The notes under the pieces are model-generated. The model did no database searches, was not told the origin of the DNA, and saw only the letters and a list, made by a program, of their open reading frames with translations. Positions 15,066 through 32,144 of a DNA stretch of 64,000 nt are shown one piece after another; within the stretch, counting starts at the first letter, position 1; every line of letters starts with the position of its first letter. The translations under genes were made by a program, and so were the position numbers. The DNA comes from an uncultured Parcubacteria group bacterium (GTDB lineage: Bacteria; Patescibacteriota; Patescibacteriia; UBA9934; CAMTUG01), in NCBI GenBank assembly GCA_947084965.1, contig CAMTUG010000001.1:345293-409292 (forward strand), read 5' to 3'.

Positions 15066-15068
15066 TGT

Positions 15069-16523: not shown

Positions 16524-16543
16524 TCAAGAGGTATCCGATACGA

Positions 16544-16581: not shown

Positions 16582-18312
16582 ATGTCCAACACCCCCAACT
16601 ACGACGCCAAGGTTCAAGCGATTCTCGACGCGACTCAGCCGGGGGAGAGGACGTGCGCGATTACGGGGGAGAAATGGGTTCAGGACGACGAAGAGCTTCG
16701 CTGGTACAAAGAGTTTAACGTCCCACCGTCGGCCCATGCGCCGTACACACGGATGCAGTGTTTTACATCGTTTTTTCGAAGCGGACAGTGGTGGTGGAAT
16801 AAACATCCGGTGACGGGAAAGCCCCTTATCTCGTCGGTGCACCCGGCGTGCGGTGTCCCTGTTCTACCGGACAAAGAATGGCATCAGAAAGATTTTCAGG
16901 AGGTGCAGTCTGAAGTCGATCTTTCGCGATCGTTCATTGATCAGATGTTTGAGCTGCGGAAACGCGTTCCGGCCGCAGCGCATGGAAATTATCAGGAGCC
17001 GGAGAATTCGATCGCCGTTGCTTCGTTTGGCGACGTCAATTCGTATTTTATGGTGGCGAGCAAAGGGAAGAATTGTTTCTTCAGCATCGTGGTGTTGAAC
17101 GGCGAGAATTCATCCGAGGTGTACAACAGCGAATCGATCACCGACAGCTATCACGTCATTCACTGCGAGCGGATGTTTAATTGTCAGTACGTGCGCGAGT
17201 CAAAGGATTGTCTCAACGCGCTTTTCTTGTTTGATTGTCGCAATTGCGAGTTTGTTTTCGGTGGATCGAATCTACGCAATAAAAAGTACGTGTGGTTCAA
17301 CGAACAATTAACGCAGGAAGAATGGGAACGTCGTCGAGCCGAAGTGAACACCGCTTCACGGTCGGCGATGCAACCACATCTCGAACGCTTCGAACAGATG
17401 ATTCAGGACGCGGTCTGGCCAGAAAATTTTAACATCAAATCAGAGAACTGCGTCGGTGAATATCTGACTAACTGTGAAGACAGTCGCTTTGTTTACTATG
17501 CCGACGGCGGCGCCCGTAATAACTACTGGATCGCTTGGTTAATTGGCAAGGCCGAACACAACGCCTTTGTCGCCGATCCGGCTAGTTCGCAAGATACGTA
17601 TTGCTCGACCGCGCTTTCGAGCTGTTTCAATACCAAGTTCTCTGTCTATTCCGTGCGCTGTAAAGATGTCGAATATTGTCTTGAGTGTTATGACTCGGAA
17701 TACTGCTTTGGATGCGTCGGCTTGCGTAAGAAGAGGTTCTGTATTTTGAACAAGCAGTACACCGAATCTGAGTATTGGCCAATGATCGACGCGATCAAGT
17801 GTGCGATGATCGATCGAGGGGAATATGCCGAAGGAGTTCCTCCGAAGTTTTCGCTCGGCTGGTTTCCAGAATCTGGCGCGGCCAAATATTATCAGTCGAC
17901 AGAAGAGTTTGGGCGCAGGATCGGTGCCAACGTATTTGATCCTGCATCTGAAGGAGCGTACGGCGACGAATTGATGACCGCCCGCGAGGTACGCGACGTT
18001 TCGCAAATCCCAGACGATGCCAAGGAATTGGATGGCTGGGCAGGTGTTGCTTTATTCGATCCGGAATTTAAGCGCCGGTATTCTTTGCTCGCGCCCGAAA
18101 TCGCTTTGTACCAAAAGCTGAAGATCGCTCCGCCGAACACACACTTCATTGATCGCGTTCATAAGTACATTCGCCTCGGCAACGCTCCAATCTTCCTCGA
18201 GGCCTCCTGTGCAAACTGCAGCAAGCAAGTGACGATCGCCAAAAATCCAACGTACACCAATCGCAAAATCTACTGCACCGAGTGCTACGTGAAGTACTTG
18301 GAAAGCAAATAA
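16582..18312 (+). CDS. Cys-rich paralog family protein, member 1 of 10 (uncharacterized family)
   Basis: MSNTPNYDAKVQAILDA…FDCRNCEFVFGGSNLRNKKYVWFNEQLTQEEWERRR…EYCLECYDSEYCFGCVGL…CANCSKQVTIAKNPTYTNRKIYCTECY. Start placed at the conserved MSNTP motif (tracked ORF begins upstream at 16462). Confidence 0.7.
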   Translation: MSNTPNYDAKVQAILDATQPGERTCAITGEKWVQDDEELRWYKEFNVPPSAHAPYTRMQCFTSFFRSGQWWWNKHPVTGKPLISSVHPACGVPVLPDKEWHQKDFQEVQSEVDLSRSFIDQMFELRKRVPAAAHGNYQEPENSIAVASFGDVNSYFMVASKGKNCFFSIVVLNGENSSEVYNSESITDSYHVIHCERMFNCQYVRESKDCLNALFLFDCRNCEFVFGGSNLRNKKYVWFNEQLTQEEWERRRAEVNTASRSAMQPHLERFEQMIQDAVWPENFNIKSENCVGEYLTNCEDSRFVYYADGGARNNYWIAWLIGKAEHNAFVADPASSQDTYCSTALSSCFNTKFSVYSVRCKDVEYCLECYDSEYCFGCVGLRKKRFCILNKQYTESEYWPMIDAIKCAMIDRGEYAEGVPPKFSLGWFPESGAAKYYQSTEEFGRRIGANVFDPASEGAYGDELMTAREVRDVSQIPDDAKELDGWAGVALFDPEFKRRYSLLAPEIALYQKLKIAPPNTHFIDRVHKYIRLGNAPIFLEASCANCSKQVTIAKNPTYTNRKIYCTECYVKYLESK

Positions 18313-18313
18313 T

Positions 18314-20044
18314 ATGTCCAACACCCCCAACTACGACGCCAAAGTCAGAGCGATTCTCGACGGGCTTACACCCGGCGAGCGTGTTTGTTCGCTCACAGGC
18401 GAGAAGTGGATGATGACCGAGGAAGAGATCGGTTGGTATAAAAAGTTTAATGTGCCACCGAGCACAGTTGCGCCGATGAATCGGGTTAAGCTGACCACTC
18501 TTTTTGGTACGGGATTTGGCTGGTGGTGGAATAAGCACGCCAAAACAGGGAAGCCGTTGTTGTCGTATGTGCATCCGGCCAACGGAATCAAAGTTCTGCC
18601 TGATCCAGAGTTTTTTGAACAGGACAATACGGACAAAGCGCGTGAGTACGACACAGAACAGAGTTTTTTTGATCAGATTCGTGCCCTTCAGCTTGAAGTT
18701 CCCTTTACGGCTTGGCGTTCGTTGACTGTGCCGGTCAATTCGATCGCTCTTTTGTCGCAAGGGGACGAGAACAGCTATTTCGTCACCGCCTGTAAATCCA
18801 AAAATTCATTCTACGCCTATTCGGTTGATGACATGGAAAACTCGGCCGAAGCGTTCGAATCCAAGTTTGTTGTTAATTCCTACAACGTTCTTAACTCGCA
18901 GCGCATTCATAACTGTAAGTTTGTGCGTCAGTCGTATGACTGCATGAACTGTAGTTTTGTTTTTGACTGTCGTAACTGCGAGTTTGTCTTTGGTGGCTCA
19001 AACCTGCGCAACAGAAAGTACGTATTTTTCAACGAGCAGTTGAGCAAAGAGGGCTGGGAAGCGCGCGTTGCCGCAATCGACCTCGGCAGCCGTCAGGTTC
19101 TCGAGGAATATATCGCCAAGTTCCAAGATCTGGTGGGACATAAAGCGGTCTGGCCAGAGAACTTCAATGAACAAGTCGAGGATTGCATCGGTGAATACTT
19201 GAATAAGTGCCGACAGTGTAAGTATCTGCTGGCAGGACATGGATCAGCCAATAACTACTACGGCGCGGTCTTTATCGACAACAGCGAAAATAATGCCTTC
19301 GTCGGCGGGGCGATTGGAAGCTTCGACAACATCTATTGTCATGCTCCGCTCAAGTCACGTGGTTGTAAGTACGTGCATTCAACGTACGAATCACAGAACA
19401 TGGAATACTGTATGCAGTGCTACAACTGTGAAAATTGTTTTGGGTGTGTTGGTCTGATCCGCAAGTCGTTCTGCATCTTCAATAAACAGTACACGCCAGA
19501 AGAGTATTGGAAGCGCGTCGATGAGTTAAAATGTGCCATGCTTGATCGCGGAGAGTACGGAGAATTCTTCCCAGCGAAGTTCTCCCCGAGCTACTGGGCC
19601 GTTTCTGTCGGGTTGCTCTATCAGATCGAAGATCCTGAAGCGATTAAGCTCGGAGCGCTCATGCTTGATCCGGAATCGGCCGGCGCGCTTGGGGAATTGC
19701 CGGTCGGGGCGGTGATGCGTTCATCTGATGATCTGCCAGATAACATCAAAGAGGTTGGTGAGGACTGGGGTGGTCAACCGATGATGGATCCGGTTGAAAA
19801 GCGTCGTTACGCCCTGTTAAAGCCCGAGATCGCCCTCTACAAGCAGTTAGGGGTCGCTGTGCGCGCTATGCACCCAATGAAGCGTCTTCGATCGATGGTT
19901 TTTGAAGCCAACTCGGGGAACTTCATCGACTCAACCTGCGCCAAGTGTGGCAAAGCAGTGACGGTAGCAACCAATAAAACATATCCCGACCGCGTCATCT
20001 ACTGCCGCGAGGATTACCTCAAATTCATCGAACAAAACGGCTAG
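18314..20044 (+). CDS. Cys-rich paralog family protein, member 2 of 10
   Basis: MSNTPNYDAKVRAILDG…. The terminal motif is CAKCGK…IYCREDY, with the fourth Cys replaced by Asp. Confidence 0.7.
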   Translation: MSNTPNYDAKVRAILDGLTPGERVCSLTGEKWMMTEEEIGWYKKFNVPPSTVAPMNRVKLTTLFGTGFGWWWNKHAKTGKPLLSYVHPANGIKVLPDPEFFEQDNTDKAREYDTEQSFFDQIRALQLEVPFTAWRSLTVPVNSIALLSQGDENSYFVTACKSKNSFYAYSVDDMENSAEAFESKFVVNSYNVLNSQRIHNCKFVRQSYDCMNCSFVFDCRNCEFVFGGSNLRNRKYVFFNEQLSKEGWEARVAAIDLGSRQVLEEYIAKFQDLVGHKAVWPENFNEQVEDCIGEYLNKCRQCKYLLAGHGSANNYYGAVFIDNSENNAFVGGAIGSFDNIYCHAPLKSRGCKYVHSTYESQNMEYCMQCYNCENCFGCVGLIRKSFCIFNKQYTPEEYWKRVDELKCAMLDRGEYGEFFPAKFSPSYWAVSVGLLYQIEDPEAIKLGALMLDPESAGALGELPVGAVMRSSDDLPDNIKEVGEDWGGQPMMDPVEKRRYALLKPEIALYKQLGVAVRAMHPMKRLRSMVFEANSGNFIDSTCAKCGKAVTVATNKTYPDRVIYCREDYLKFIEQNG

Positions 20045-20045
20045 T

Positions 20046-21785
20046 ATGAGTAACACCCCCAACTACGACGCCAAAGTCAAAGCGATTATCGACGGCATTC
20101 AGCCGGGCGCACGGGTGTGTTCGGTGCTCGGAGAGAAGTGGGAGATGACGGAGAAGGAGATCGATCTCTACCGTCGATTCAATATGCCGCCGCGGACGGT
20201 CGCAACGAACACACTGTGGAAACAGATGGCGTATTACGATGCCGGCTATCAGTTTTGGTGGAACAAGCATCCGGACACAGGAAAGCCTGTGCTTTCGTTT
20301 CATCATCCCGCTTCAGGTGTAAAAGTGCTTCCAGATGCAGAGTGGCACGCGCGAGACTTTAGCACGATCAACATCGATATCGATCCTTCGAAGCCATTCT
20401 TCGAGCAACTGCGTTCGTTGCAAGTTCAGGTTCCACTGCTTGCTACATTTAGCCGCGTCGAACCAGAAAACTCCATCACCTTGTTTTCGTTTGGTGATCG
20501 TAACAGTTACTTCACCTTTGCCTGTACGTCGGAGCGTACCTTTTTTGCTACCGGCGGATTTGAAGCGCAAGGGTCATCGCTGCTGTTCACCACGAATCAA
20601 ACGACGGACTGTCACCATGTTTTTAAATCTCAACGCATCTTCAAATGTCGTTATGTGCGTGAATCGCTTGACTGCATCGACAGCGCGTTCCTGTTCGATT
20701 GTCGTAACTGTCAGAACTGCTTCGGGGCGAGCAACAAGCGCAATCGGCAGTATGTCTTCATGAATGAGCAGTTGACGAAGGAAGAATACGAACAGCGCAT
20801 GAGTCAGATTGATTTAAGCAAGCGCAGTGAAGTGGAAACGTGGTCAAAGGCGTTTGATGAACTCTTAGCACGTGATGGTGTCTGGCCGGAAAACTTTAAT
20901 GTCAATTGTCAGGATTCGACCGGTGAATATCTCACGGGCGCGGTACGCTGTGATACTTGCTATGACTCGGCGGATGCGCCGAGCGATCAGTATCACACCT
21001 GTTGGAGTTATGGGGTCAATAACAATAATGCCTTCATGTGGGGCTCGGTCGATAGCACGGACGGGTACATGGTTTGTTCCTGTCCAAACTCAAACCAGAC
21101 GAAGTTTTCGTATCGCTCGTTCCGGTTAGATAACTGCGAGTACTGTTTCATGTGTGCGGACTTGCGCGATTGTTTCGGTTGCATCGGCTTAAAGAAAAAA
21201 CGGTTTTGTATTTTTAACAAGCAATACGAAGAGGAGGAGTATTGGCGTCTGGTCGACGAAATAAAATGTGCCATGCTCGAACGCGGGGAATATGGTCAGT
21301 ATTTTCCAACTTCGATGGCGACGACGTTCGTGCCGGAAGGCGGAGCAGTTGTGTACTGCGGGGCGACGCCAGAAGAGTTGCAAAAGCTCGGCGGGCAAAC
21401 GTTCGGGGCGGAAGACATGGATGCTACGGGTACGGGCCGGATCGACCCATCAAAAGCGCGTCGCCGTGAGGACATTCCAGATGCGATCGATGACCTTGGC
21501 GACGAATGGATCGGTGTACCGATCTACGATGAGGTGTCTGGACGGACGTTCGCCTTTTTAAAGCCAGAGGTCGAACATTATCGCCGCTTACGCATCGCTC
21601 CTCCGAATACGCACTTCATTCGTCGTATGCATGAGGTATCAAGTGCGGGACAGCGTGCCTGTTTGCAAAACGCTTCCTGTGCGCAGTGCAGCGCTACATT
21701 TATCGTAGCCAAGAATTTCCGCTATCCGGACCGCCGCATCTACTGCAAGGCGTGCTACACTGCCTTCATTGAAAAGAACGGCTAG
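20046..21785 (+). CDS. Cys-rich paralog family protein, member 3 of 10
   Basis: MSNTPNYDAKVKAIIDG…FDCRNCQNCFGASNKRN…CAQCSATFIVAKNFRYPDRRIYCKACY. Confidence 0.7.
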   Translation: MSNTPNYDAKVKAIIDGIQPGARVCSVLGEKWEMTEKEIDLYRRFNMPPRTVATNTLWKQMAYYDAGYQFWWNKHPDTGKPVLSFHHPASGVKVLPDAEWHARDFSTINIDIDPSKPFFEQLRSLQVQVPLLATFSRVEPENSITLFSFGDRNSYFTFACTSERTFFATGGFEAQGSSLLFTTNQTTDCHHVFKSQRIFKCRYVRESLDCIDSAFLFDCRNCQNCFGASNKRNRQYVFMNEQLTKEEYEQRMSQIDLSKRSEVETWSKAFDELLARDGVWPENFNVNCQDSTGEYLTGAVRCDTCYDSADAPSDQYHTCWSYGVNNNNAFMWGSVDSTDGYMVCSCPNSNQTKFSYRSFRLDNCEYCFMCADLRDCFGCIGLKKKRFCIFNKQYEEEEYWRLVDEIKCAMLERGEYGQYFPTSMATTFVPEGGAVVYCGATPEELQKLGGQTFGAEDMDATGTGRIDPSKARRREDIPDAIDDLGDEWIGVPIYDEVSGRTFAFLKPEVEHYRRLRIAPPNTHFIRRMHEVSSAGQRACLQNASCAQCSATFIVAKNFRYPDRRIYCKACYTAFIEKNG

Positions 21786-21786
21786 T

Positions 21787-23515: not shown

Positions 23516-25249
23516 ATGTCACAGACACCAAACTTTGACGCGAAGATGAAGCAGATTCTCGAGGCCACACAACCGGGTGAGCGAGTTTGTGCACTGACAG
23601 GTCGTGCATGGAAAATGGATGAGGAAGAACTTGCTTGGTATCGGAGATTTAATGTGCCACCATCCAATCGGGAACCATTGGCCCGTACACAGCTGCGAGC
23701 AAGTTTTTGGACAGGGTATCAGTGGTGGAATCATAAGCATCCGATAACTGGCAAGACCCTTATTAGCAATATTCATCCGGCGACAGGAATTAAAGTTATT
23801 CCAGACAAGGAATGGCACGCGCAAGACTTTTCTGAAATCAACAGTGATTACAGCGTAGACCAGCCATTTTTCGATCAGCTTCGAGCGTTACAACTTCGAG
23901 TTCCGCATCCGGCCAGCAGAAATGTCGTTGAGCCAGAAAACTCTATCGCCACAATTTCAATGGGGGATCGTAACAGTTACTTCACCCTCGGTTGCACCTC
24001 CGAAAACTCTCTCTACAGTATTTGGGCAGCAAACTTGAGTAATTCTTCCGAGGTGAATTTTGCCGGGGTCATTAGTGATAGTTACAGCGTTAACAATGCC
24101 AAGAACGTCCATGGCTCACTTTTTGTACGTGAGAGTAAAGACGTTATCAAGTCCGCGTTTGTTTTTCTTTGTGATGACGTTGAATATTGTTTTGGTGCCA
24201 CGAATCAATCACACAAAAAGTTTATCTTCTTTAATAAGCAACTGACAGAAGATGAGTTTAAGGCAGAGATCACCAAGATTGATCTCTCCCGACGCGATCA
24301 ACTTCAAATGTACATAGGTCGTTTTCGCGATCTCGTGGGTAACCAAACGATCTGGCCAGAAACCTTGAGTAACCGTAACGTAAACGTGACAGGTGAGTAC
24401 AACTACGACTGCCGAGATCTGCAGAATTGTTACGGGTGTGTTGATAACTGTGCAAATTTGTTTTGGTGTAATTACGGAGTCGACGGTACGGACAGTGCTT
24501 TTTCTACACCTGTTCGCTCAACGGCGTGTTACGAAGGAGATAATACGTATAATTCGCACGACGTAAAGTTTTCGTATGCGACGTACCGTTGTCGGTCGAT
24601 GGAGTATTGCTTGATGAACTACGACTGCGAAGATTGTTTCGGGTGCGTCGGATTGCGCCACAAAAAGTTTCACATCTTTAACAAGCCTTATGAGGAAGCA
24701 GAGTATTGGAGGCGTGTCGACGAACTAAAGTGTGCGATGCTTGATCGTGGGGAGTATGGAAACTTCTTTCCGCTTTCTATGTCGACGGCCTACTTCGGGG
24801 AATCAGGTGGAGTGATGTATTACGACGCGGACCCTTCGTTAAACAAAACCTTTGGTGGATTGGAGTACGATCCAGAGTCTGCCGGGGCCATTGGGGACTT
24901 GGCCATGGCATCAGTCGTCAAAAAAACAACGGATATCCCAAACAGTATCGCTGATGTACAGGACGCGGATTGGGTTGGTGTACCTGTGATGGACGTTGTT
25001 CATAATCGACGTTTTGCTTTTTTGAAGCCGGAAATGGATTTTTATCGTCGAAAAAAGTTGGCACCACCTGCAGAACATTTCGTGTATCGCATCAAAAAGT
25101 TATCGTGGGAAGGCAACTTGGGTATTTTGGAAGAGCGGTCCTGTGCGAAGTGCGGAAAGAAGATACAGGTTGCTAAAAACCTCACATATCCAAATCGTCA
25201 GGTGTATTGCATGGACGATTACCTTCAATATCTTGAAGAAGCAACTTAG
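23516..25249 (+). CDS. Cys-rich paralog family protein, member 5 of 10
   Basis: MSQTPNFDAKMKQILEA…. The most diverged central region. Terminal CAKCGKKIQVAKNLTYPNRQVYCMDDY, with Cys replaced by Asp. Confidence 0.7.
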   Translation: MSQTPNFDAKMKQILEATQPGERVCALTGRAWKMDEEELAWYRRFNVPPSNREPLARTQLRASFWTGYQWWNHKHPITGKTLISNIHPATGIKVIPDKEWHAQDFSEINSDYSVDQPFFDQLRALQLRVPHPASRNVVEPENSIATISMGDRNSYFTLGCTSENSLYSIWAANLSNSSEVNFAGVISDSYSVNNAKNVHGSLFVRESKDVIKSAFVFLCDDVEYCFGATNQSHKKFIFFNKQLTEDEFKAEITKIDLSRRDQLQMYIGRFRDLVGNQTIWPETLSNRNVNVTGEYNYDCRDLQNCYGCVDNCANLFWCNYGVDGTDSAFSTPVRSTACYEGDNTYNSHDVKFSYATYRCRSMEYCLMNYDCEDCFGCVGLRHKKFHIFNKPYEEAEYWRRVDELKCAMLDRGEYGNFFPLSMSTAYFGESGGVMYYDADPSLNKTFGGLEYDPESAGAIGDLAMASVVKKTTDIPNSIADVQDADWVGVPVMDVVHNRRFAFLKPEMDFYRRKKLAPPAEHFVYRIKKLSWEGNLGILEERSCAKCGKKIQVAKNLTYPNRQVYCMDDYLQYLEEAT

Positions 25250-25250
25250 T

Positions 25251-26996
25251 ATGTCGCATACACCAAATTTTGACGCCAAGATCAACGCCATTCTCGATGC
25301 AATCCAAGCAGGCGAGCAAACCTGTGCATTGACTGGAGAGAAATGGATGCTGGATGAACTTGAATTAAACTTTTATCGCAAGTTTAGTTCTCCTCTATCT
25401 GTGTATTCTCCGCAAACGCGCATGAAGCTTCTCGGTGGGTTTCGGACGGGTTTTGAAATTTTTTGGAATAAGCATGCGAAGTCCGGGGAGCCGATCCTTA
25501 GTTATATTCACCCGGATAATCCAATTCCTGTTGTCACCGATGCGGATTGGCACGCCATGGATATCGGCGGCTTGCAGGAGTACCAACGCGAGATCGACCC
25601 TGCCCAACCATTTTTCGAGCAGTTTCGCAGCTTGGCACATGTGGTACCAATGGGCGCGCGCCGCGAATGGAAGAACGTCGTCAATACGGTCGGGGTTGGT
25701 ATGTGGGATATTGAAGATAGTTATCTTGTTTTTTCGACCGTTGGCGTGAAGCGCTGCATGTACACCTTTTACTGTCTTGAAGGATCAGAGGACATCACTC
25801 AGTCCGTGCATATCAATCACTCACAAAACTGCTTTGGATCAACGCAGATTACTCGTTGTCATTCATGTACTGTAGCGGTCATTAGCTTCGATTGCTTGAA
25901 GTGTGATTTCGTTTATGACTGTCGTAACTGTGAGTTTGTCTTTGGGGGAGCGAATTTGCGTAACAAAAAGTACGTCTGGTTCAACGAGCAATTGAGTAAG
26001 GACGAGTGGGAACGTCGTCGCGCGGCGGTCGATCTCTCCTGTCGTTCTGTGTTCAAGGAGTACCAACAGAAGTTCCTTCAACTTGTCGAACAGTCGGCCA
26101 CACCGGAACATTTTAATGTGAACGCGCCGGACTGTACGGGGGATTATCTTACGGACTGTGTGCGCTGCAAGGATTGCTATAGCTCGCAGCGGCTGACGGA
26201 TTGCGCCTATATGCATGGATCGACCGGGGCTGAAGGCAGTGCATTCTGTGTCGGGGCGTACCCAGCGACGCAGTCCTGGATGTGCAGCATGATCTCGAAT
26301 TCCAGCAATCTTAAATACTCCATGACCTGCGGGCGGAGCCAGAATCTCGAGTACTGCTTCAATTGTCATGATTGTGAAAACTGTTTCGGGTGTGACGGTC
26401 TGCGCAATCGTAAGTTTTGCATTGGGAACGTGCAGTACAGCGAGGACGAGTACTGGCGCCGTGTCGATGCGTTGAAGTGCGCCATGCTGGAACGGGGAGA
26501 ATACGGCCAGTTCTTTCCTCAGGATCTTTCGCCGACCGGCATGCAGTTTAGCCATTCGGCTATGTATTATCGGCTTTCAACCGCCGATGTGCAGGCTCTT
26601 GGGGCGCCGCTGTATGATCCGGATCAAGGCGTGGTGCTGGCTCCAAAGAAAACGGTTGAAGAACCTCCAAAAGATGCATCTGCGGCTCCAGACTGTTTGC
26701 GGGACGTTGATCCGGCCGTGTGGGTTAGTAAACCGTTCATGGACGAGCGGGTGCGTCGTCGCTGGAGTGTTGTGCCAAAAGAGTTCGCTTATTACACGGA
26801 TCGTCAGTTGCCATTTCCGGAAGAGCACTATTCTTCTCGGTTGCAAAAACAGATTCAGATGATGAACCAGCCGGCCTTTGAACAACTGCCGTGCGTGGTC
26901 TGTCAAAAGCCAGTGCAGGTCGGGCGCAACCCAGCATTTACAAAGCGTCGCGTGCATTGCATGAGTTGCTACCTGAAGTATTTGGAAGCACACTAG
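25251..26996 (+). CDS. Cys-rich paralog family protein, member 6 of 10
   Basis: MSHTPNFDAKINAILDA…YDCRNCEFVFGGANLRNKKYVWFNEQLSKDEWERRR…CVVCQKPVQVGRNPAFTKRRVHCMSCY. Start at the conserved motif (tracked ORF begins at 25143). Confidence 0.7.
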   Translation: MSHTPNFDAKINAILDAIQAGEQTCALTGEKWMLDELELNFYRKFSSPLSVYSPQTRMKLLGGFRTGFEIFWNKHAKSGEPILSYIHPDNPIPVVTDADWHAMDIGGLQEYQREIDPAQPFFEQFRSLAHVVPMGARREWKNVVNTVGVGMWDIEDSYLVFSTVGVKRCMYTFYCLEGSEDITQSVHINHSQNCFGSTQITRCHSCTVAVISFDCLKCDFVYDCRNCEFVFGGANLRNKKYVWFNEQLSKDEWERRRAAVDLSCRSVFKEYQQKFLQLVEQSATPEHFNVNAPDCTGDYLTDCVRCKDCYSSQRLTDCAYMHGSTGAEGSAFCVGAYPATQSWMCSMISNSSNLKYSMTCGRSQNLEYCFNCHDCENCFGCDGLRNRKFCIGNVQYSEDEYWRRVDALKCAMLERGEYGQFFPQDLSPTGMQFSHSAMYYRLSTADVQALGAPLYDPDQGVVLAPKKTVEEPPKDASAAPDCLRDVDPAVWVSKPFMDERVRRRWSVVPKEFAYYTDRQLPFPEEHYSSRLQKQIQMMNQPAFEQLPCVVCQKPVQVGRNPAFTKRRVHCMSCYLKYLEAH

Positions 26997-26997: not shown

Positions 26998-28683
26998 ATG
27001 TCGCATACGCCAAACTTTGACGCCAAGATCAACGCTGTCATCGACGCTTTGCCTGCGGGTAAGGACGCGGAGATCTGTCGCAAGTTTCGTGTCCCGCCAA
27101 TTAAAATGGATCCAACCGAGCAGTTGGATCTTCTAACCGGATTTAACACCGGAATGGCTTTTTTTTGGAAGCCGCACATGAAGACCGGTGTGCCACTGCT
27201 TTCGGCAATTCACCCAGATACCCCGATTCCTGTCGTCACCGAAGAGGAGTGGGTGGAGATGGATGCAACGACATTTGGTCAAGAGATTGATCTGGCACAG
27301 CCGGTGTTTGATCAACTCTGGGGATTAGTGACACGTGTCCCGCATAATCCGACGCGTAACTTGAATTGCACACAATCGGTCGCGGTTGGAACGATTAATG
27401 CTAATGATTGTTATTGCGTTTCTGCCTCGTATATTGTGAACCGCTGTTTATATGGATACGCCATGCTCAACGGGGAAGACTGTATCGATTCCGGCAATGG
27501 GATGAACGTCGCCCGTTCGTATCAATCCGGCGGAAGTAACGACATCAGTGATTGCCAGTATGTTTATGAATCAAAAGGGTGTTTGAACTCTTCGTTCTTA
27601 TTTGATTGCTGGAACTGCGAATTTTGTTTCGGAGCCACGAACCAGCGTAACAAACGGTTTCTCTTTTTTAATGAACAGTTAGACGAGGCGGAGTACAAAA
27701 AACGCCTTGCCGAGATTGATCTCTCCGATGCCTCGGTCGCTAACGTGTACATTAAGCGCTTTATGGCCTTATGGAGGGCGGAAGGTGTCTGGCCAGAGGC
27801 GTTTGGCTACGGAAATACCGAGGCGGAAGGGGAACACGTCTTCGGTTGTGTGCGTTGTCAGGAATGTTTCTGGCAGAACATGTCTGTTGACTGTTATCGT
27901 TGTCGTCTGGGTGCGAGCAACAGTGGTTGTGCGTACACATCAGGGGCCGGTTCCCAGCAGGATAGTTACATGACGACCGGAGGTACGTTCGGATCAGGAA
28001 ACAAGTTTTGCGTTGGTGCAACCAAATGCATTGGCTGTGAGTATTGTTTTAATTGTCGTGAGTGCGAGAACTGCTTTGGATGCGTTGGATTACAGCACAA
28101 GAAGTTTTGTATTTTTAACAAACAGTATACGGAGGAAGAATACTGGCGTCGTTTGGATGAACTTAAGTGTCAGATGTTAGAAGCAGAAGAGTACGGGTCG
28201 TTTTTCCCAGCCAAGTTTTCACCGTGTGGATTGCAGTTTTCCGCCGGGGAGATTTATGTTGGATACAGCGCTGAGCGTCTGAAGCAGTACGGGGCGCCGT
28301 ATCTTGATCCAAAACGCGGGCAGGTCTTTGCCCCACATCCGCAGGAGCTACAGCCGATTGAAGCTGACAGCTTACCGCTTCGTTTAGATGATGTTGATTC
28401 ATCGCTGTTCGTGGGAAAAGCTATTCATGATCCAGAATGCGATCGTCTTTTTACGATTCTCCCCTCTGAATTTGAAACGTATAAGGCGAAGCGTTGGCCC
28501 CTACCACGAAGGCACTTTACGACGCGGCTGATTGAGCTCGTCCGTCGCTCTAACTCGCCTATGCCAAAAGATGCTGAATGCGCTGCGTGTCATGTGGCGA
28601 TCACTACCTATCGTAACTTCACCTTTCCAGAACGGACGGTCTATTGTCGTTCATGTTACTTGAAGTTTTTGGAGACGCGCTAA
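26998..28683 (+). CDS. Cys-rich paralog family protein, member 7 of 10 (N-terminally truncated variant)
   Basis: MSHTPNFDAKINAVIDALPAGKDAEICRKFRVPP…. Lacks the GERVCxxTGEKW…WYKKFNVPP segment found in the other members. The rest of the family signature is intact. Confidence 0.65.
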   Translation: MSHTPNFDAKINAVIDALPAGKDAEICRKFRVPPIKMDPTEQLDLLTGFNTGMAFFWKPHMKTGVPLLSAIHPDTPIPVVTEEEWVEMDATTFGQEIDLAQPVFDQLWGLVTRVPHNPTRNLNCTQSVAVGTINANDCYCVSASYIVNRCLYGYAMLNGEDCIDSGNGMNVARSYQSGGSNDISDCQYVYESKGCLNSSFLFDCWNCEFCFGATNQRNKRFLFFNEQLDEAEYKKRLAEIDLSDASVANVYIKRFMALWRAEGVWPEAFGYGNTEAEGEHVFGCVRCQECFWQNMSVDCYRCRLGASNSGCAYTSGAGSQQDSYMTTGGTFGSGNKFCVGATKCIGCEYCFNCRECENCFGCVGLQHKKFCIFNKQYTEEEYWRRLDELKCQMLEAEEYGSFFPAKFSPCGLQFSAGEIYVGYSAERLKQYGAPYLDPKRGQVFAPHPQELQPIEADSLPLRLDDVDSSLFVGKAIHDPECDRLFTILPSEFETYKAKRWPLPRRHFTTRLIELVRRSNSPMPKDAECAACHVAITTYRNFTFPERTVYCRSCYLKFLETR

Positions 28684-28684: not shown

Positions 28685-30415
28685 ATGTCGCATACACCAA
28701 ATTTTGATAGCAAATTACAAGCTCTTCTCGACGCCACCACGCCGGGTGAGCGCGTTTGTCGCATCTCTGACGAACGCTGGCTGCTCACGCCAGAGGAGAT
28801 CGATCGCTGTCGCGCTTGGGGTGTGCCTCCAAGCCCATACGCCCCAACAATGCGCCTCAAGCTGCTCGCTGCCTCAGCTGCGGGAGTTGATCTGTGGTGG
28901 CGTCCGCACGCTTTGACCCAAAAACCGATCCTTTCTTCTAGTGATCCGGACGCCCTTGCGCCCGTGGTGACAGACGATGAATGGTATACGCTCGATGATG
29001 GTTCTGCTCACGGCTTTTCTGCCGACGCGGAGCGTCCATTTTTTGAACAGTATGTTAAACTGATCCCGCTCATTCCGATGCAGGCGAACTACTCAACCGG
29101 ATCAGAAAACTGCATTGGGGGTGGTTTTGAAAAGTGCGTTAACGGATTCATGATATTCGGGTCGTTCACTTTGCAGGATTGCTGGTACACCTTTCGCAGT
29201 AAATCGGATGAGCGCTGTATGGATGTGGCATTCGTCGCTTACTCGCAGGACTGTTTTTCTTGCTGCATGGCCGACCGTTTGCACGGATGCACGCAGGTCT
29301 TTGATTCTCTTGATTGTATCAACTCACAATTCCTCTTTGACGCCCGCGACTGCGAATCCTGCTTCTGCTCGACCAACCTGCGTCGCCGCAAGTATGTTTT
29401 CATGAACGAACAGCTGACCAAAGACGAATATGAACGCCGGATGAGCGAGATCGATCTCGGCTGCTCGTCTGTCTTTGCAAAGTGGAAAGAGATCTTTCAT
29501 CAACTGCTTGCGACACAAGCGGTCTGGCCAGAGGCCTTTAGTATCAACTCGCCTGGGTGCGTTGGGGATTATCTATTGAATTGCCTGGATAGCTCGGGGT
29601 GGTACATGGATGATGCCCGCGACGTGCGAGGAGGATGGATGGTCTTCGGACAGTCCAGCCATTCGGAGGCGATCGTTGTGGCTCGCTCGGCGCAAGATGC
29701 GTACATGTCCGCTGGCGTCCTCGGAAGTCAGAATGTGAAGTTCTCGCTGGTGTCCAAGGACTCGACGGCGCTTGAGTATTGCAATAACTGTCGCGATTGC
29801 GAGAACTGCTTTGGCTGTCATTCGCTCCGCAGTAAAAAGTTTCATATCTTTAACAAGCCGTACAGCGAAGAGGAGTATTGGAAGACCATTGATGCCCTGA
29901 AGTGCGCCATGCTCGATCGTGGCGAGTACGGCCAGTGGTTTCCGCCGGTTGTTAGCAACTGGCGACCAGAAACGGGGTTCGCCTCTATTGTTTCGCCGCT
30001 GACGGATGTGGAGATCGCGCGTCTTGGTCTTACACCGTTCGATCCGAAGTCGGCGATGCGCTTTGCTCCGGCGAACAATCAAGCGGTCGGTAACTTGGCG
30101 GAAGTGCCAGACTGCATCGATCAGGTTGGTGCTGAATGGGCGAACGTGCCGTTTGACGATGTTTCTCAAGCTCGCCGGTTCAATGTGAGCTCACGCGAAG
30201 TTGAATTTCGCAAAGAGCGTCGTTATCCGTTTCCAAAATCGCATTACCGCGCTCGGCTGACCGAGCTTGTACGCCAGATCAACGGACCGGAAACGGAAAG
30301 CCGCCCCTGCGCCAAATGCCAGAAGGCGATGACAGTGAATAAAAATCAGATGTTCCCAGACCGTACGATCTATTGCATGGACTGTTTTTACACGTTCATC
30401 GAAAGTCGTGGTTAA
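28685..30415 (+). CDS. Cys-rich paralog family protein, member 8 of 10
   Basis: MSHTPNFDSKLQALLDATTPGERVCRISDERW…CAKCQKAMTVNKNQMFPDRTIYCMDCF. Confidence 0.7.
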   Translation: MSHTPNFDSKLQALLDATTPGERVCRISDERWLLTPEEIDRCRAWGVPPSPYAPTMRLKLLAASAAGVDLWWRPHALTQKPILSSSDPDALAPVVTDDEWYTLDDGSAHGFSADAERPFFEQYVKLIPLIPMQANYSTGSENCIGGGFEKCVNGFMIFGSFTLQDCWYTFRSKSDERCMDVAFVAYSQDCFSCCMADRLHGCTQVFDSLDCINSQFLFDARDCESCFCSTNLRRRKYVFMNEQLTKDEYERRMSEIDLGCSSVFAKWKEIFHQLLATQAVWPEAFSINSPGCVGDYLLNCLDSSGWYMDDARDVRGGWMVFGQSSHSEAIVVARSAQDAYMSAGVLGSQNVKFSLVSKDSTALEYCNNCRDCENCFGCHSLRSKKFHIFNKPYSEEEYWKTIDALKCAMLDRGEYGQWFPPVVSNWRPETGFASIVSPLTDVEIARLGLTPFDPKSAMRFAPANNQAVGNLAEVPDCIDQVGAEWANVPFDDVSQARRFNVSSREVEFRKERRYPFPKSHYRARLTELVRQINGPETESRPCAKCQKAMTVNKNQMFPDRTIYCMDCFYTFIESRG

Positions 30416-30416: not shown

Positions 30417-32144
30417 ATGTCCAACACGCCCAACTACAACGCCAAAGTGAAGGCGATTCTCGAGGCGACAACGCCTGGGGAGCGGGTTTGTGCGTTAACG
30501 GGTGAGAAATGGATGCTGACAGATGAAGAGATCGGCTGGCTCAAAAAATTCCAGGTTCCGCCACATCCGTGGGCGCCGATCATGCGTTTGAAACAGATGA
30601 TGGGATTTCCGACTGGAATCGCCATCTGGCGCAAGCCCCACGCAGACACAGGGGAGCCGATCTTATCGTTCGTTCACCCAGACAATCCGTTCAAGGTGAT
30701 TACGGACAAAGAATGGTTTGCTCGAGACTTTGCGCAATCAACCAAAGAACTTGATCCTGACCGGCCGGTGTTCCCGCAACTGCAGGCACTAGCACAAGCA
30801 ACGCCTGTGGGCGCCCTGCGCGACGATGGAAGTAATATCAATTGCGTCGGCGTAGATATTATTGACGGCCAAGATTGCTACATGTTTTTTGGTGGCTACG
30901 GTAACAAACGCAGCATGTACGGTGCGGTTAGTTACGAATCTGAAGACGCTTGCCTGCTCACCAACACCAAGGGTATTCAGCGCTCCTACATGATCAATGC
31001 CTGTTCGGACCTGCATGGTTGTCGTTACTGTTTTCAAAATGGCAAGTTGATAAACTGCACTTTTTGTTTCGATTGTGACAATCTCGAATTTTGTTTTGGC
31101 GCATCAAATCAAAGTCACAAAAAGTATCTCTTCTGGAATGAACAGTTAACGAAAGAAGAGTGGGAACGTCGTGTTAGTGAAGTCGATCTTTCCGATCGTG
31201 GGGTTTGGGAAGCGCAGGTCAGGCGGTTTCATCAAATGGTTTGCGAAGAGGCGTACTGGCGTGCGGATTTTAACCTTGAGCCGCTCGAGGATAGCACTGG
31301 GGAATACTTGTTAAATTCGACCCGCCTGCACGATTGTTACTGGCAGGATGGCGGCACGGATCTCTATCGTTCTTGGATCGGGGTGGAGTCGCGCGAAAGT
31401 GCCTTTGTCGTTTGGTCCGGTTGGGGAGATGCGGCTTACATGTGCACAGATATTTTGAAGCATCATAATATCAAAATGTGCATGCGCGTCTGGCGTTCAC
31501 AAAACTTGGAATACTGTATCGATTGTTTTGACTGCGAGGACTGTTTTGGTTGTGTGGGCCTGCAACGCAAATCGTTCTGTATCTATAACAAACAGTACAG
31601 CGAAGCCGACTATTGGCAGAGGGTTGATGCCCTGAAGTGTGCCATGCTGGACCGTGGGGAGTACGGACAGTTTTTCCCCGCGCAGTTTTCTCAGGTCGGT
31701 TATGCCTATTCCATGGGGGAGTTGTACTTGGGCTACACACCGGAAGAATTGTCCCTTTTTGGAGCGCTGGAGTTTGATTCAACAAAGGGGAACGTGCATA
31801 CGGTCGATGGCACGCTCAAGGTAACGGATTTGCCGGACCGCCTGATAGACACCATTCCGGAGCAGCACGTGGGCAAGCCGATCCTCGACACCGCTCTCGG
31901 GCGACCGTTTACGATCACACCGACAGAGTTCGCCTTTTATCAGTCGCACGGGCTTCCTCTCCCACGCGAACACTTTTTGTCGCGAATGACGACCCTCTTC
32001 CGTCACGCCAACGGCCCAATCCCTGAACAGGCTCCGTGCGCCAAGTGCGGCACAAACGTGACAACGTGGAAAAACGCGCTCTTCTCCGGTCGCCGTCGTG
32101 TACTATGCAGGCCGTGTTATTTGCAGTATTTTGAGACACGATAA
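30417..32144 (+). CDS. Cys-rich paralog family protein, member 9 of 10
   Basis: MSNTPNYNAKVKAILEATTPGERVCALTGEKWMLTDEEIGW…CAKCGTNVTTWKNALFSGRRRVLCRPCY. Start at the conserved motif (tracked ORF begins at 30408). Confidence 0.7.
   Translation: MSNTPNYNAKVKAILEATTPGERVCALTGEKWMLTDEEIGWLKKFQVPPHPWAPIMRLKQMMGFPTGIAIWRKPHADTGEPILSFVHPDNPFKVITDKEWFARDFAQSTKELDPDRPVFPQLQALAQATPVGALRDDGSNINCVGVDIIDGQDCYMFFGGYGNKRSMYGAVSYESEDACLLTNTKGIQRSYMINACSDLHGCRYCFQNGKLINCTFCFDCDNLEFCFGASNQSHKKYLFWNEQLTKEEWERRVSEVDLSDRGVWEAQVRRFHQMVCEEAYWRADFNLEPLEDSTGEYLLNSTRLHDCYWQDGGTDLYRSWIGVESRESAFVVWSGWGDAAYMCTDILKHHNIKMCMRVWRSQNLEYCIDCFDCEDCFGCVGLQRKSFCIYNKQYSEADYWQRVDALKCAMLDRGEYGQFFPAQFSQVGYAYSMGELYLGYTPEELSLFGALEFDSTKGNVHTVDGTLKVTDLPDRLIDTIPEQHVGKPILDTALGRPFTITPTEFAFYQSHGLPLPREHFLSRMTTLFRHANGPIPEQAPCAKCGTNVTTWKNALFSGRRRVLCRPCYLQYFETR

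What the first reader, a model, noticed from the sequence alone, without database searches (positions are those of the whole stretch)
16582..20100. Array members share near-identical 5' nucleotide sequence despite divergent bodies - possible recombination or gene-conversion substrate
Members 1 and 2 begin with the identical DNA string atgtccaacacccccaactacgacgccaa, then continue with closely similar sequence (…ggttcaagcgattctcgacg / …agtcagagcgattctcgacg). Member 3 begins atgagtaacacccccaactacgacgccaaagtcaaagcgatt, and member 9 atgtccaacacgcccaactacaacgccaaagtgaaggcgatt. Elsewhere the nucleotide sequences diverge extensively, including at synonymous sites. Conservation above what the protein requires at the 5' ends, in a perfectly tandem array, is the configuration that supports cassette exchange or gene conversion, or a conserved translational or RNA element at each start.
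Basis: seen in the sequence. Interest (0 to 1): 0.55.

Follow-up and report, generated by a model that had tools for sequence, protein, structure and literature searches.

The report
Shared gene starts in paralog array
Ten back-to-back copies of an uncharacterised Uhrbacteria gene share short runs of identical DNA at their starts, best explained by selection on the start of each message plus occasional copying between copies: a known process, seen here in a new gene family.

Summary
Members 1-2 share 29 identical bases from the ATG, 2-3 share 28, 1-3 share 23, 6-8 share 23 and 6-7 share 20. Whole genes are only 45-56% identical in DNA. Five such runs at the start exceed two null models, which expect 0.15-0.18.

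Averaged over all 45 pairs, most 5' similarity is simply the conserved peptide MSNTPNYDAKVKAIL.

Two further layers were found in 164 homologues from 32 Patescibacteria genomes:
- **Codon choice.** It is position-specific across the family. The start region is G-poor, mostly lacks a Shine-Dalgarno match and is less structured than synonymous shuffles. A candidate hairpin lies at +43..+66.
- **Within-genome homogenisation.** Exact 5' runs occur in 15.5% of adjacent paralog pairs, 5.1% of other same-genome pairs and 0.44% of between-genome pairs. Tracts start sharply at the ATG and reach 66-152 nt.

Orthologues are least conserved exactly where paralogs are most conserved. Members 2 and 3 match each other better than either matches its own orthologue.

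Best reading: short-tract gene conversion among paralogs, on top of translation-related synonymous constraint. No silent-cassette, DGR or recombinase machinery was found. This is a new member of a known kind, of moderate interest.

The parts
16582..18312 (+). Array member 1 (576 aa); true start is the ATG at 16582, not the upstream GTG at 16462
   Evidence: homology to the other members begins at MSNTPNYD
18314..20044 (+). Array member 2 (576 aa); orthologues at 81-88% aa identity in L001, L003, L004 and L075
20046..21785 (+). Array member 3 (579 aa); orthologue L001_5 at 81% aa identity
21787..23514 (+). Array member 4
23516..25249 (+). Array member 5
25251..26996 (+). Array member 6
26998..28683 (+). 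Array member 7 (561 aa); lacks 15 residues of the conserved N-terminal motif
28685..30415 (+). Array member 8
30417..32144 (+). Array member 9; body groups with members 6-8, but the first 40 residues lean towards the member 1-5/10 group
32147..33883 (+). Array member 10
16582..16610 (+). 29-nt tract identical to 18314-18342 (members 1 and 2)
18320..18347 (+). 28-nt tract identical to 20052-20079 (members 2 and 3); 35 of 36 positions identical over nt 7-42
25251..25273 (+). 23-nt tract identical to 28685-28707 (members 6 and 8)
25269..25288 (+). 20-nt tract identical to 27016-27035 (members 6 and 7)
30417..30461 (+). Member 9 start; 5 differences in 45 nt from member 2 against 9 from its closest relative L004_5
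18356..18379 (+). Candidate RNA hairpin at +43..+66 (CUCG-a-CGGG ... CCCG-g-CGAG) in member 2. Equivalent positions: 16624-16647, 21829-21852, 25293-25316, 28727-28750, 30459-30482, 32189-32212. Poorly formed in members 3 and 5 and disrupted by the deletion in member 7
18310..18316 (+). Example junction TAA-T-ATG. Eight of the nine internal junctions have a 1-nt spacer; the 9/10 junction has 2 nt. The junction to the downstream hydrolase gene (ATG at 33885) also has a 1-nt spacer

Best explanation
The region is an operon-like array of ten translationally coupled paralogs. They belong to an uncharacterised, Uhrbacteria-expanded protein family of about 577 aa, with a conserved N-terminal domain, a Cys-rich beta-solenoid and a C-terminal CxxC...CxxC finger.

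Three layers together make the gene starts alike.

1. **Protein conservation (shown).** The N-terminal peptide MS(N/H/K)TPN(Y/F)DAKVKAILD is the most conserved block among paralogs. This accounts for most of the raw nucleotide similarity.

2. **Synonymous constraint (pattern shown, function inferred).** Codon choice in the first ~25 codons is constrained family-wide. Most starts lack a Shine-Dalgarno match. Nucleotides 7-42 are A/C-rich and G-poor and fold less than synonymous shuffles. A small hairpin at +43..+66 folds better than shuffles. The inferred purpose is efficient (re)initiation in a coupled array.

3. **Short-tract gene conversion (inferred from comparative patterns, not observed directly).** On top of the first two layers, the 5' ends are occasionally copied between paralogs of the same genome, preferentially between neighbours. 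Tracts begin where homology begins, at the ATG, and run 20-170 nt until divergence stops them. In this window that produced two 5' types, carried by members 1-2-3 (and perhaps 9) and by members 6-7-8.

The conserved start is the only stretch similar enough to support homologous pairing, so conversion there would be self-reinforcing (inferred). The same handles could mediate unequal crossing-over that adds or removes whole genes. That would fit the differing copy number and order in related genomes, but no breakpoint was mapped.
For: **Excess in this window.** Five exact runs of at least 20 nt lie at the start, against 0.15-0.18 expected under synonymous-shuffle and position-specific-codon nulls. 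There is no excess elsewhere in the genes: 1 run observed against about 1.7 expected.

**Orthologue test.**
- Members 2 and 3 have orthologues in L001 at 87% and 81% aa identity.
- At nt 1-45, members 2 and 3 differ at 5 positions, and at only 1 of 36 over nt 7-42.
- Member 2 differs at 11 from its orthologue and member 3 at 12 from its orthologue. The two L001 orthologues differ from each other at 14.
- Codon 13 of member 2 is GCG (Ala). Members 1, 3 and 9 share it, but its orthologues have V, P, I or T there.

**Family-wide, 164 genes from 32 genomes (pairs at 60% aa identity or less).**
- A run of at least 20 nt in the first 45 nt occurs in 9/58 adjacent pairs, 31/606 other same-genome pairs and 55/12604 between-genome pairs. 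Fisher tests give p=0.005 (adjacent versus other same-genome pairs) and p=2e-27 (same-genome versus between-genome pairs).
- The between-genome rate of 0.44% equals the simulated rate from selection plus chance.
- The within/between ratio is 10x in nt 1-90 against about 3x in most other conserved blocks. Eleven of the 14 runs of at least 30 nt lie in the first ~210 nt.
- Tracts of 66 nt (L021), 152 nt (L071) and 36-45 nt (JBDRLV, JACQWJ) start at or within 12 nt of the ATG, with no upstream identity.
- Orthologues are least conserved in codons 2-31 (nt identity 0.69/0.64 against 0.72-0.76 elsewhere), whereas paralogs are most conserved there.
- The orthologue-minus-paralog gap is 0.04 at the 5' block against 0.10-0.20 in equally conserved control blocks.

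**Synonymous constraint.**
- Position-specific codon use against body use: Y7 TAC 91% against 34%, L15 CTC 63% against 13%, E22 GAG 78% against 40%, R23 CGG 50% against 13%. This holds in low-GC3 genomes too.
- The region -30..+45 has mean z +0.78 (less structured than synonymous shuffles). The region +40..+72 has mean z -1.45. The control region has z -0.22.
- G content is 6-21% at nt 7-42 against 24% in the body. An SD-like 4-mer is present in only 19/162 genes.
- The hairpin is 79% paired against 34-51% for slid controls.

**Array dynamics.** Syntenic arrays hold 10 (this window), 5 (L003) or at least 7 (L001) copies, in different order and with unrelated insertions.
Against: - No conversion event was observed directly, and no population or long-read data were available.
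- The tracts in this window are short (20-29 nt) and form only two clusters, so the window-specific statistics rest on very few events.
- Same-genome paralogs share codon usage, which inflates exact matches about 3x even in control blocks. Genome-specific selection on the start sequence could add more.
- The exact first 32 nt of member 3 recur in a non-orthologous copy of another genome (L078). Convergence on preferred codons can therefore produce long matches.
- A four-taxon site count in nt 1-45 is uninformative: 2 sites for each topology.
- The hairpin has only weak covariation (12 of 500 shuffles reach the observed score). It is absent or poor in members 3, 5 and 7, and z-scores for the individual window copies range from -3.6 to +0.6.
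- Pairs used in the family statistics are not phylogenetically independent.
Confidence: 0.6

Rival explanations
1. Selection only. The shared strings are convergent choices of the same best codons for a conserved peptide. A nucleotide-level requirement at each start drives them: an unstructured, G-poor initiation region, the +43..+66 hairpin, or recognition by a genome-specific RNA or protein. No DNA is copied between copies.
For: - Codon choice is strongly position-specific family-wide, even in low-GC genomes.
- The members 1-3 string is close to the all-C-ending/AAA optimum for a GC3-rich genome.
- The same 26-32-nt strings recur in non-orthologous copies of other genomes: L003_4, L075_5267 and L078.
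- The between-genome match rate equals the simulated rate.
Against: - The position-specific null still expects only 0.18 runs against 5 observed.
- Members 6-8 share a non-optimal string, TCG CAT ACA CCA AAT TTT.
- Orthologues of members 2 and 3 change synonymous sites here as fast as elsewhere: 5' nt identity 0.71-0.76 against 0.75-0.77 for the rest of the gene. The exact string is therefore not held by purifying selection.
- Only 3-4 of the 10 copies share each variant, which does not fit a single trans-acting recogniser.
- Exact tracts of 66 and 152 nt at 48-52% aa identity cannot come from codon preference.
- The adjacency effect, 15.5% against 5.1%, is not predicted.
Confidence: 0.2
2. 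Programmed cassette or diversity system. The conserved 5' segment is a dedicated recombination handle that swaps or shuffles variable gene bodies, or changes which copies are present. The purpose would be to diversify putative effector or surface proteins, as in antigenic-variation cassette systems or orphan toxin-tip arrays.
For: - Perfect head-to-tail array with identical junctions.
- Copy number and order differ among syntenic relatives, and unrelated genes are inserted between copies.
- The family is hugely expanded and divergent within genomes.
- The array sits directly after two VirD4/TraG-like ATPase genes.
- The 3' end shows a high within/between ratio of exact runs (13x in nt 1621-1710), but on very few runs: about 0.01 per same-genome pair.
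Against: - All ten copies are complete ORFs with start codons, in one coupled operon. There is no single expression site with silent, truncated cassettes.
- No recombinase, integrase or reverse transcriptase was found among the ORFs of at least 200 aa scanned in the window.
- No rearrangement breakpoint was mapped to the 5' handle.
- Tracts copy the conserved part, not the variable bodies.
- Most same-genome pairs (85-95%) show no tract.
Confidence: 0.1
3. Recent tandem duplication followed by very fast divergence of the gene bodies. The slowly evolving 5' end is left as the only remnant of identity.
For: The identical tracts are between neighbours.
Against: - Members 2 and 3 each have orthologues at 81-88% aa identity in other genomes. 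Their duplication therefore predates those splits, yet their 5' ends are more alike than either is to its orthologue.
- Silent sites in the bodies are saturated, with same-codon fraction 0.36-0.50.
- Among orthologues, the 5' end is the fastest-evolving part, not the slowest.
Confidence: 0.03
4. Chance similarity, given a conserved peptide and biased codon usage.
For: Averaged over all 45 pairs, the same-codon fraction at the start (0.49) is close to that of other conserved blocks (0.50-0.52).
Against: Two null models reject it: 0 of 500 shuffles and 0 of 3000 simulations reach 5 runs. The same pattern recurs in many other genomes.
Confidence: 0.02

Closest known systems
Interlocus (ectopic) gene conversion and concerted evolution in tandem or dispersed paralogs. 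Examples from my own knowledge: bacterial tuf duplicates and the mycobacterial PE/PPE families, which have conserved N-terminal domains and variable C-termini. The literature search listed PMC13061034 (gene conversion in M. tuberculosis antigens), 10.1101/2025.10.29.685298 (mosaic divergence in tandem paralogues) and PMC1855330 (tandem arrays in T. brucei); I saw only their titles and abstracts
   Same: Non-reciprocal homogenisation confined to the most similar segment of otherwise divergent paralogs. Within-genome identity exceeds orthologue identity in the tract. The effect depends on distance (neighbours are affected more). The result is a mosaic divergence profile.
   Different: The tracts here are very short (20-170 nt) and pinned to the first codons, starting exactly at the ATG. 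The genes are translationally coupled and belong to an uncharacterised Patescibacteria family. The evidence is comparative only.
Selection for weak mRNA structure and A/C-rich sequence just after the start codon. This covers the general 5' coding-region effect and CA-rich downstream translational enhancers (my own knowledge of the literature; no paper was read here)
   Same: G-poor, A/C-rich first ~14 codons that fold less than synonymous shuffles. Most starts lack a Shine-Dalgarno match.
   Different: The constraint here is position-specific across a whole paralog family. It is followed by a candidate hairpin and a switch to G-ending codons. No expression data exist.
Silent-cassette antigenic variation systems: Neisseria pilE/pilS, Borrelia vlsE, Anaplasma msp2 (my own knowledge)
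   Same: Arrays of divergent copies with short conserved flanks that serve as homology for segmental gene conversion.
   Different: Those systems have one expression site plus promoterless or truncated cassettes, and the variable part is what gets copied. Here all copies are complete and co-oriented in one operon, and the conserved part is what gets copied.
Orphan toxin-tip arrays downstream of rhs/cdiA genes (my own knowledge)
   Same: Tandem modules keep a short stretch of conserved 5' coding sequence that can recombine with a full-length gene.
   Different: There is no long conserved core gene, no immunity genes between copies and no toxin domains. Every copy is full length.
Left-handed or generic beta-solenoid proteins (curli CsgA, Tenebrio antifreeze protein, hexapeptide-repeat acyltransferases). 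This comparison concerns the protein only
   Different: Only about 90 of 576 residues match. No Foldseek hit reaches E<=0.001, and there is no sequence-family match. The N-terminal domain and C-terminal finger have no named relatives.

Membership tests
Interlocus gene conversion / concerted evolution | A tract of paralog identity that exceeds expectation at silent sites | tested here: met
   5 runs of at least 20 nt against 0.15-0.18 expected; no excess elsewhere in the genes
Interlocus gene conversion / concerted evolution | Within the tract, paralogs of one genome are closer to each other than each is to its orthologue (phylogenetic incongruence with the body) | tested here: met
   Members 2-3 differ at 5/45 (1/36 over nt 7-42) against 11-12/45 to their orthologues. 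Family-wide orthologue-paralog gap is 0.04 at the 5' block against 0.10-0.20 in control blocks. The four-taxon site count alone is uninformative
Interlocus gene conversion / concerted evolution | The excess is specific to copies in the same genome and stronger for nearby copies | tested here: met
   15.5% adjacent, 5.1% other same-genome, 0.44% between genomes; pairs are not independent
Interlocus gene conversion / concerted evolution | Direct observation of converted alleles in a population or in experiments | not testable with these tools
   A 23-mer scan of metagenome contigs found no strain-level relatives of this genome, only one distant copy
Silent-cassette antigenic/phase variation system | One expressed locus plus silent, truncated or promoterless donor cassettes | tested here: not met
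   All ten copies are full-length ORFs with an ATG and coupled junctions; no excess of promoter or terminator matches inside the array
Silent-cassette antigenic/phase variation system | The variable segment is what moves, flanked by conserved handles on both sides | tested here: not met
   The identical tracts cover the conserved start only; the bodies stay 45-56% identical
Diversity-generating retroelement (DGR) | A reverse transcriptase gene and a template/variable repeat pair nearby | tested here: not met
   No RT domain in the scanned window ORFs of at least 200 aa. The repeats lie at gene starts between complete genes. Adenine-specificity of the mismatches was not formally scored; substitutions of several base types are visible in the pair alignments
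Site-specific recombination (shufflon/integron-like cassettes) | A recombinase or integrase gene and defined recombination sites | tested here: not met
   No integrase or recombinase domains in the window. The shared tracts vary in length and end point
Described RNA family (Rfam) | A match at the family's gathering score | tested here: not met
   The only Rfam hit in the 64 kb is a tRNA at 55168-55238
Conserved structured RNA element at each start (undescribed) | More stable than synonymous shuffles, and base pairs supported by covariation | tested here: inconclusive
   +40..+72 has mean z -1.45, with 83% of genes more stable than shuffles. The helix is 79% paired against 34-51% for slid controls, but covariation is weak (12/500). 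It forms in about 6-7 of the 9 window copies folded. The alternative helix at 64-81 was rejected
Low-structure / A-C-rich translation start region | Initiation region less structured than synonymous alternatives, with skewed composition | tested here: met
   -30..+45 has mean z +0.78, with 77% of genes less stable than shuffles. G is 6-21% at nt 7-42 against 24% in the body, and an SD-like 4-mer occurs in 19/162 genes. The effect on translation was not testable
Named protein family (Pfam/NCBIfam) | A score above the curated cut-off | tested here: not met
   Only sub-threshold matches of the C-terminus: zf_Tbcl_2 (19.8 bits, cut-off 27) and TIGR04272 (19.6 bits, cut-off 36). Homologues carry no Pfam domain

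The most novel reading that the evidence does not exclude
The first ~30-170 nt of each gene act as a built-in recombination handle for a very large, fast-diverging family of putative secreted or effector proteins. These genes sit next to VirD4-like coupling ATPase genes in episymbiotic Uhrbacteria. Exchange and unequal crossing-over at the handle would continually reshuffle which bodies are present, their order and their number. This would be a recombinase-free, whole-gene cassette diversification system that keeps every copy translatable, because breakpoints fall at the start codon.
Probability: 0.12. Interest if true: 0.7.

Novelty: new member of a known kind. Interest (0 to 1): 0.4.

Why it matters
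This case shows how to separate three causes of "too much" nucleotide identity at gene starts: protein constraint, synonymous constraint and copying between paralogs. It does so in a lineage, Patescibacteria, where almost nothing is known about recombination or translation signals.

The family is one of the larger uncharacterised expansions in Uhrbacteria. A one-genome-per-species collection holds 512 coding stretches, and one MAG holds at least 22 full-length copies. The family also sits beside VirD4-like ATPase genes. Knowing that its gene starts exchange, and that arrays differ in copy number between relatives, helps anyone studying its function or assembling these repeats.

The signature "paralogs most alike where orthologues are least alike" is a simple, reusable test for localised concerted evolution.

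Tried and rejected
- **Conserved antisense ORF over the gene starts.** Antisense ORFs of 93-109 aa overlap the starts of members 1-5. However, the sense codons that give in-phase antisense stops (TTA/CTA/TCA) are only mildly depleted there (0.21 against 0.28-0.30 in low-GC genomes), and the frames differ. Rejected.
- **Long-range C-rich/G-rich pairing between codons 2-21 and 22-60.** A scan of all column pairs found only two 4-bp helices conserved in register. RNAalifold on 160 sequences gave no consensus structure. Not supported.
- **Second hairpin GAGCG/CGCUC at nt 64-81.** It is 60.6% paired, the same as a slid control, with no covariation. Rejected.
- **Member 9 as a clear chimera.** Its first 40 residues lean towards the other clade by only +0.14. 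Suggestive only.
- **Four-taxon informative-site test for members 2 and 3.** Too few sites in 45 nt, 2 for each topology.
- **Rfam.** No family matched apart from one tRNA.
- **Pfam, NCBIfam and fold searches for a protein function.** Only generic beta-solenoid matches were found. The afdb50 library was unavailable.
- **Metagenome scan for strain-level relatives with the 23-mer.** One hit, in a distant non-orthologous copy, so no population data.
- **Literature searches on this family in Uhrbacteria.** Nothing found.
- **First folding-energy run.** It timed out and was repeated with fewer shuffles.

Full report
**What is there**

The flagged interval is the beginning of an array of ten head-to-tail genes on the + strand, spanning 16582-33883. 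Each encodes a protein of 561-579 aa. Eight of the nine internal junctions read stop codon-T-ATG, and the 9/10 junction has a 2-nt spacer. The downstream alpha/beta-hydrolase gene (ATG at 33885) follows member 10 in the same way.

Promoter-like and terminator-like matches inside the array are no more frequent than in shuffles. The copies therefore look like one translationally coupled operon.

The proteins are 33-51% identical to each other. They have no Pfam or NCBIfam assignment beyond a sub-threshold C-terminal CxxC...CxxC treble-clef finger.

Homologues are numerous: 1275 proteins with E<=1e-3 among the 8000 candidates scored. Where they carry names, they are hypothetical proteins of Candidatus Uhrbacteria or Patescibacteria.

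The surrounding genes are chromosomal housekeeping genes. The order is SecDF, a 574-aa protein whose orthologues carry DUF8128, two VirD4/TraG-like ATPases, the array, a hydrolase, BacA, MnmA, LepA and RecJ. No reverse transcriptase, integrase or recombinase was found.

**Checking the observation**

The quoted strings are present. The 23-mer AACACCCCCAACTACGACGCCAA occurs exactly in members 1, 2 and 3, and with two mismatches in member 9. None is expected by chance.

On a codon alignment, the longest exact runs between any two members are as follows:

| Pair | Run length | Start (nt from ATG) |
|---|---|---|
| 1-2 | 29 nt | 1 |
| 2-3 | 28 nt | 7 |
| 1-3 | 23 nt | 7 |
| 6-8 | 23 nt | 1 |
| 6-7 | 20 nt | 19 |

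These are five of the six runs of at least 20 nt in the whole array.

Whole genes are 45-56% identical in DNA. At identical residues they use the same codon only 36-50% of the time.

Two null models were applied:
- Permuting synonymous codons within each gene gives 0.15 such runs in the first 30 nt, with a maximum of 3 in 500 permutations.
- Drawing codons from position-specific frequencies observed in other genomes gives 0.18. P(>=5) was 0 in 3000 simulations, and P(longest run >=29) was 0.003.

The excess is therefore real. It is also small and local. Averaged over all 45 pairs, codons 1-15 have nt identity 0.71, aa identity 0.68 and same-codon fraction 0.49. Two other conserved blocks reach 0.50-0.52. 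Most of the raw similarity is the conserved peptide MSNTPNYDAKVKAIL.

**A family-wide synonymous constraint**

I collected related loci and extracted 164 distinct full-length genes from 32 genomes. Codon choice in the first ~25 codons is position-specific and far from the usage in the gene bodies:

| Position | Preferred codon | Share at this position | Share in gene bodies |
|---|---|---|---|
| Y7 | TAC | 91% | 34% |
| L15 | CTC | 63% | 13% |
| D16 | GAC | 71% | 32% |
| G21 | GGC | 58% | 25% |
| E22 | GAG | 78% | 40% |
| R23 | CGG | 50% | 13% |
| K3, K10, K12 | AAA | 76-87% | 60% |

The bias also holds in genomes with GC3 near 0.3.

After controlling for amino-acid identity, even between-genome paralog pairs share codons 1.2-1.26 times more often than expected at codons 12-26.

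Features of the start region:
- Nucleotides 7-42 are A/C-rich and G-poor, with G at 6-21% against 24% in the bodies.
- Only 19 of 162 genes have a Shine-Dalgarno-like 4-mer at -18..-7.
- The region -30..+45 folds less stably than synonymous shuffles: mean z +0.78 +/- 0.08, with 77% of genes less stable.
- The region +40..+72 folds more stably: mean z -1.45 +/- 0.13, with 83% more stable. A control region gives -0.22.

The stable element is a small hairpin. CUCG-a-CG (Leu15-Asp16-Ala17) pairs with CG-g-CGAG (Pro20-Gly21-Glu22). Third positions opposite a fixed G are mostly C or U. On 127 sequences, 79% of cells pair against 34-51% for slid controls, but covariation is weak, with 12 of 500 shuffles reaching the observed score.

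In this window the hairpin forms in about six or seven of the nine copies folded, with different inner stems. Individual z-scores range from -3.6 to +0.6. I regard the hairpin as a candidate, not as established. An alternative helix was rejected, as was a conserved antisense ORF. Rfam has nothing there.

The inferred purpose is efficient (re)initiation at mostly SD-less, coupled starts. That function was not tested.

**Within-genome homogenisation**

Selection alone does not explain why particular neighbours share particular strings. Four lines of evidence point to copying between paralogs.

*1. The excess is specific to copies in the same genome.* Among pairs at 60% aa identity or less, an exact run of at least 20 nt in the first 45 nt occurs at the following rates:

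| Pair class | Pairs with a run | Rate |
|---|---|---|
| Adjacent, same genome | 9/58 | 15.5% |
| Other, same genome | 31/606 | 5.1% |
| Between genomes | 55/12604 | 0.44% |

Fisher tests give p=0.005 for adjacent against other same-genome pairs, and p=2e-27 for same-genome against between-genome pairs. The pairs are not independent.

The between-genome rate matches the simulated rate from selection plus chance (0.18 per 45 pairs). In 90-nt bins, the within/between ratio is 10 in nt 1-90 against about 3 in most other conserved blocks. Eleven of the 14 within-genome runs of at least 30 nt lie in the first ~210 nt.

*2. The tracts look like conversion tracts.* They begin at or within 12 nt of the ATG, with no identity upstream, even when one copy follows an intergenic region and the other follows a gene. 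They then end or decay. Examples are 66 nt exact in L021, about 170 nt nearly identical (152 nt exact) in L071 at 52% aa identity, and 36-45 nt in several JBDRLV and JACQWJ copies.

*3. Orthologues provide a clock.* Members 2 and 3 have orthologues in L001 at 87% and 81% aa identity, so their duplication is older than that split. Yet over nt 1-45, members 2 and 3 differ at 5 positions, and at 1 of 36 over nt 7-42. Each differs at 11-12 from its orthologue, and the two L001 orthologues differ from each other at 14.

If the two starts had evolved independently since the split, roughly nine differences would be expected in nt 7-42. My rough Poisson estimate of seeing one or fewer is about 0.001; this is an inference, not a tool result.

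Member 2 also carries GCG (Ala) at codon 13, like members 1, 3 and 9. Its four orthologues have V, P, I or T at that position.

*4. Orthologues and paralogs show opposite conservation patterns across the family.* Orthologues (at least 70% aa identity) are least conserved in codons 2-31, with nt identity 0.69/0.64 against 0.72-0.76 elsewhere. Paralogs are most conserved there. The orthologue-minus-paralog gap in nt identity is 0.04 at the 5' block against 0.10-0.20 in five equally conserved control blocks. The gene starts have largely lost their orthology signal, as expected if they are exchanged among paralogs.

**Array dynamics**

Syntenic arrays in relatives lie between the same flanking genes: the VirD4-like pair upstream and, where the contig reaches that far (L003), the hydrolase and MnmA downstream. 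They hold 5 copies (L003), at least 7 (L001) and at least 5 (L004). Orthologues appear in a different order, and unrelated genes are inserted: a glyoxalase-domain gene in L004, a gene with a weak DUF3800 match in L075, and others.

This fits recombination between copies. I could not map any breakpoint to the 5' segment.

**What argues against the conversion reading**

- No event was observed directly.
- The window's tracts are short and form only two clusters.
- Shared codon usage inflates same-genome matches about 3-fold even in control blocks.
- The first 32 nt of member 3 recur in a non-orthologous copy (44-49% aa identity) from another genome. Preferred codons alone can therefore occasionally give long matches.
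- A selection-only model with genome-specific optima cannot be excluded for the 20-29-nt tracts. It does not explain the 36-152-nt tracts, the adjacency effect, the non-optimal string shared by members 6-8, or the normal synonymous turnover in orthologues.

**Comparison with known systems**

The behaviour is that of interlocus gene conversion and concerted evolution restricted to the most conserved segment of divergent paralogs. From my own knowledge this is known for bacterial tuf duplicates and the mycobacterial PE/PPE families. It is also described in papers listed by the search, which I did not read in full (PMC13061034; 10.1101/2025.10.29.685298; PMC1855330).

It is not a silent-cassette antigenic variation system, because all copies are complete and co-expressed and the conserved part is what gets copied. 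It is not a DGR or a site-specific cassette system, because no RT or recombinase was found.

The unstructured, A/C-rich start fits the general rule of weak structure at the 5' ends of coding regions.

**Verdict**

The best explanation is protein conservation, plus translation-related synonymous constraint, plus short-tract gene conversion among neighbouring paralogs (confidence about 0.6).

This is a new member of a known kind of process, in an uncharacterised and strongly expanded Patescibacteria family. Interest is moderate.

Noticed in passing
window 16517-16566: Just upstream of member 1 there is an extended -10-like TGTATAAT (16517-16524, overlapping the end of the VirD4-like gene). It is followed by a GC-rich hairpin GGCGGGG-TCACGTA-CCCCGCC (16546-16566) and then TTT. 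This could be the array's promoter with a 5'-UTR hairpin, or a leaky terminator after the upstream gene. The consensus scan did not flag it.
   Followed up: no
window 26998-28683 (member 7): Member 7 lacks 15 residues of the otherwise nearly invariant N-terminal motif (ER.C.LTGEKW ...). The deletion also removes part of the candidate hairpin. It may be a degenerating or functionally divergent copy.
   Followed up: no
window 13065-16523 and 47328-49847: Two VirD4/TraG-like coupling-ATPase genes lie directly upstream of the array, and a third lies 13 kb downstream; a PilM-like gene is at 43326-44471. The first ATPase has a sub-threshold treble-clef zinc-finger match (residues 484-512) of the same Pfam family as the C-termini of the array proteins. 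The ATPase pair plus array is conserved in L001, L003 and L004.
   Followed up: partly
L001, L003, L004, L075 (syntenic arrays in relatives): Copy number is 5 to at least 7 against 10 in this window. Gene order differs, for example orthologues of members 10, 4, 5, 2, 3 in L001. Unrelated genes are inserted between copies: a glyoxalase-domain gene in L004, a gene with a weak DUF3800 match in L075, and genes of 147-410 aa with no Pfam match.
   Followed up: partly
L071 nt 10000-10180 and 11738-11918 (CAYIEH MAG): Two adjacent paralogs at 52% aa identity share about 170 nt of almost perfect identity from nt 9 (152 nt exact), followed by an abrupt loss of similarity. This is the clearest mosaic found. 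In L021, 66 nt from the ATG are identical between neighbours at 48% aa identity.
   Followed up: partly
family-wide, codons 2-60 of all members (window examples: 18317-18493): Third codon positions switch from C-rich/G-poor (codons 2-21) to G-rich/C-poor (codons 22-60), in both low-GC and high-GC genomes. The unstructured start and the small hairpin explain only part of this, and no in-register long-range pairing was found.
   Followed up: partly
L078 nt 3643-3665 (Hainich H43 contig): The only exact match to the shared 23-mer in the metagenome collection is the start of a non-orthologous family member (44-49% aa identity to any window copy). Its first 32 nt equal those of member 3.
   Followed up: yes
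loci (e.g. L006, L012-L014, L023): Several contigs that encode this Patescibacteria family, including one syntenic with the window, come from MAGs titled 'uncultured Gammaproteobacteria bacterium' or 'Pseudomonadota'. These are probably mislabelled bins or record titles.
   Followed up: no
window 30408-30419 and 10 junctions in other genomes: At some junctions an in-frame upstream start (GTG or ATG GTT AAT ATG) overlaps the preceding gene by 8 nt, giving an alternative M/V-V-N-M-S... N-terminus. Among adjacent family genes, the spacings seen were 1 nt (17 junctions), -8 nt (10) and 2 nt (6).
   Followed up: no
Genome-contig collection: The family is strongly expanded in Uhrbacteria. There are 512 coding stretches in a one-genome-per-species collection, and at least 22 full-length copies in the fragments recovered from MAG JBDRLV. 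Giovannonibacteria, Sungiibacteriota and other Patescibacteria carry one to three copies at about 28% identity.
   Followed up: partly
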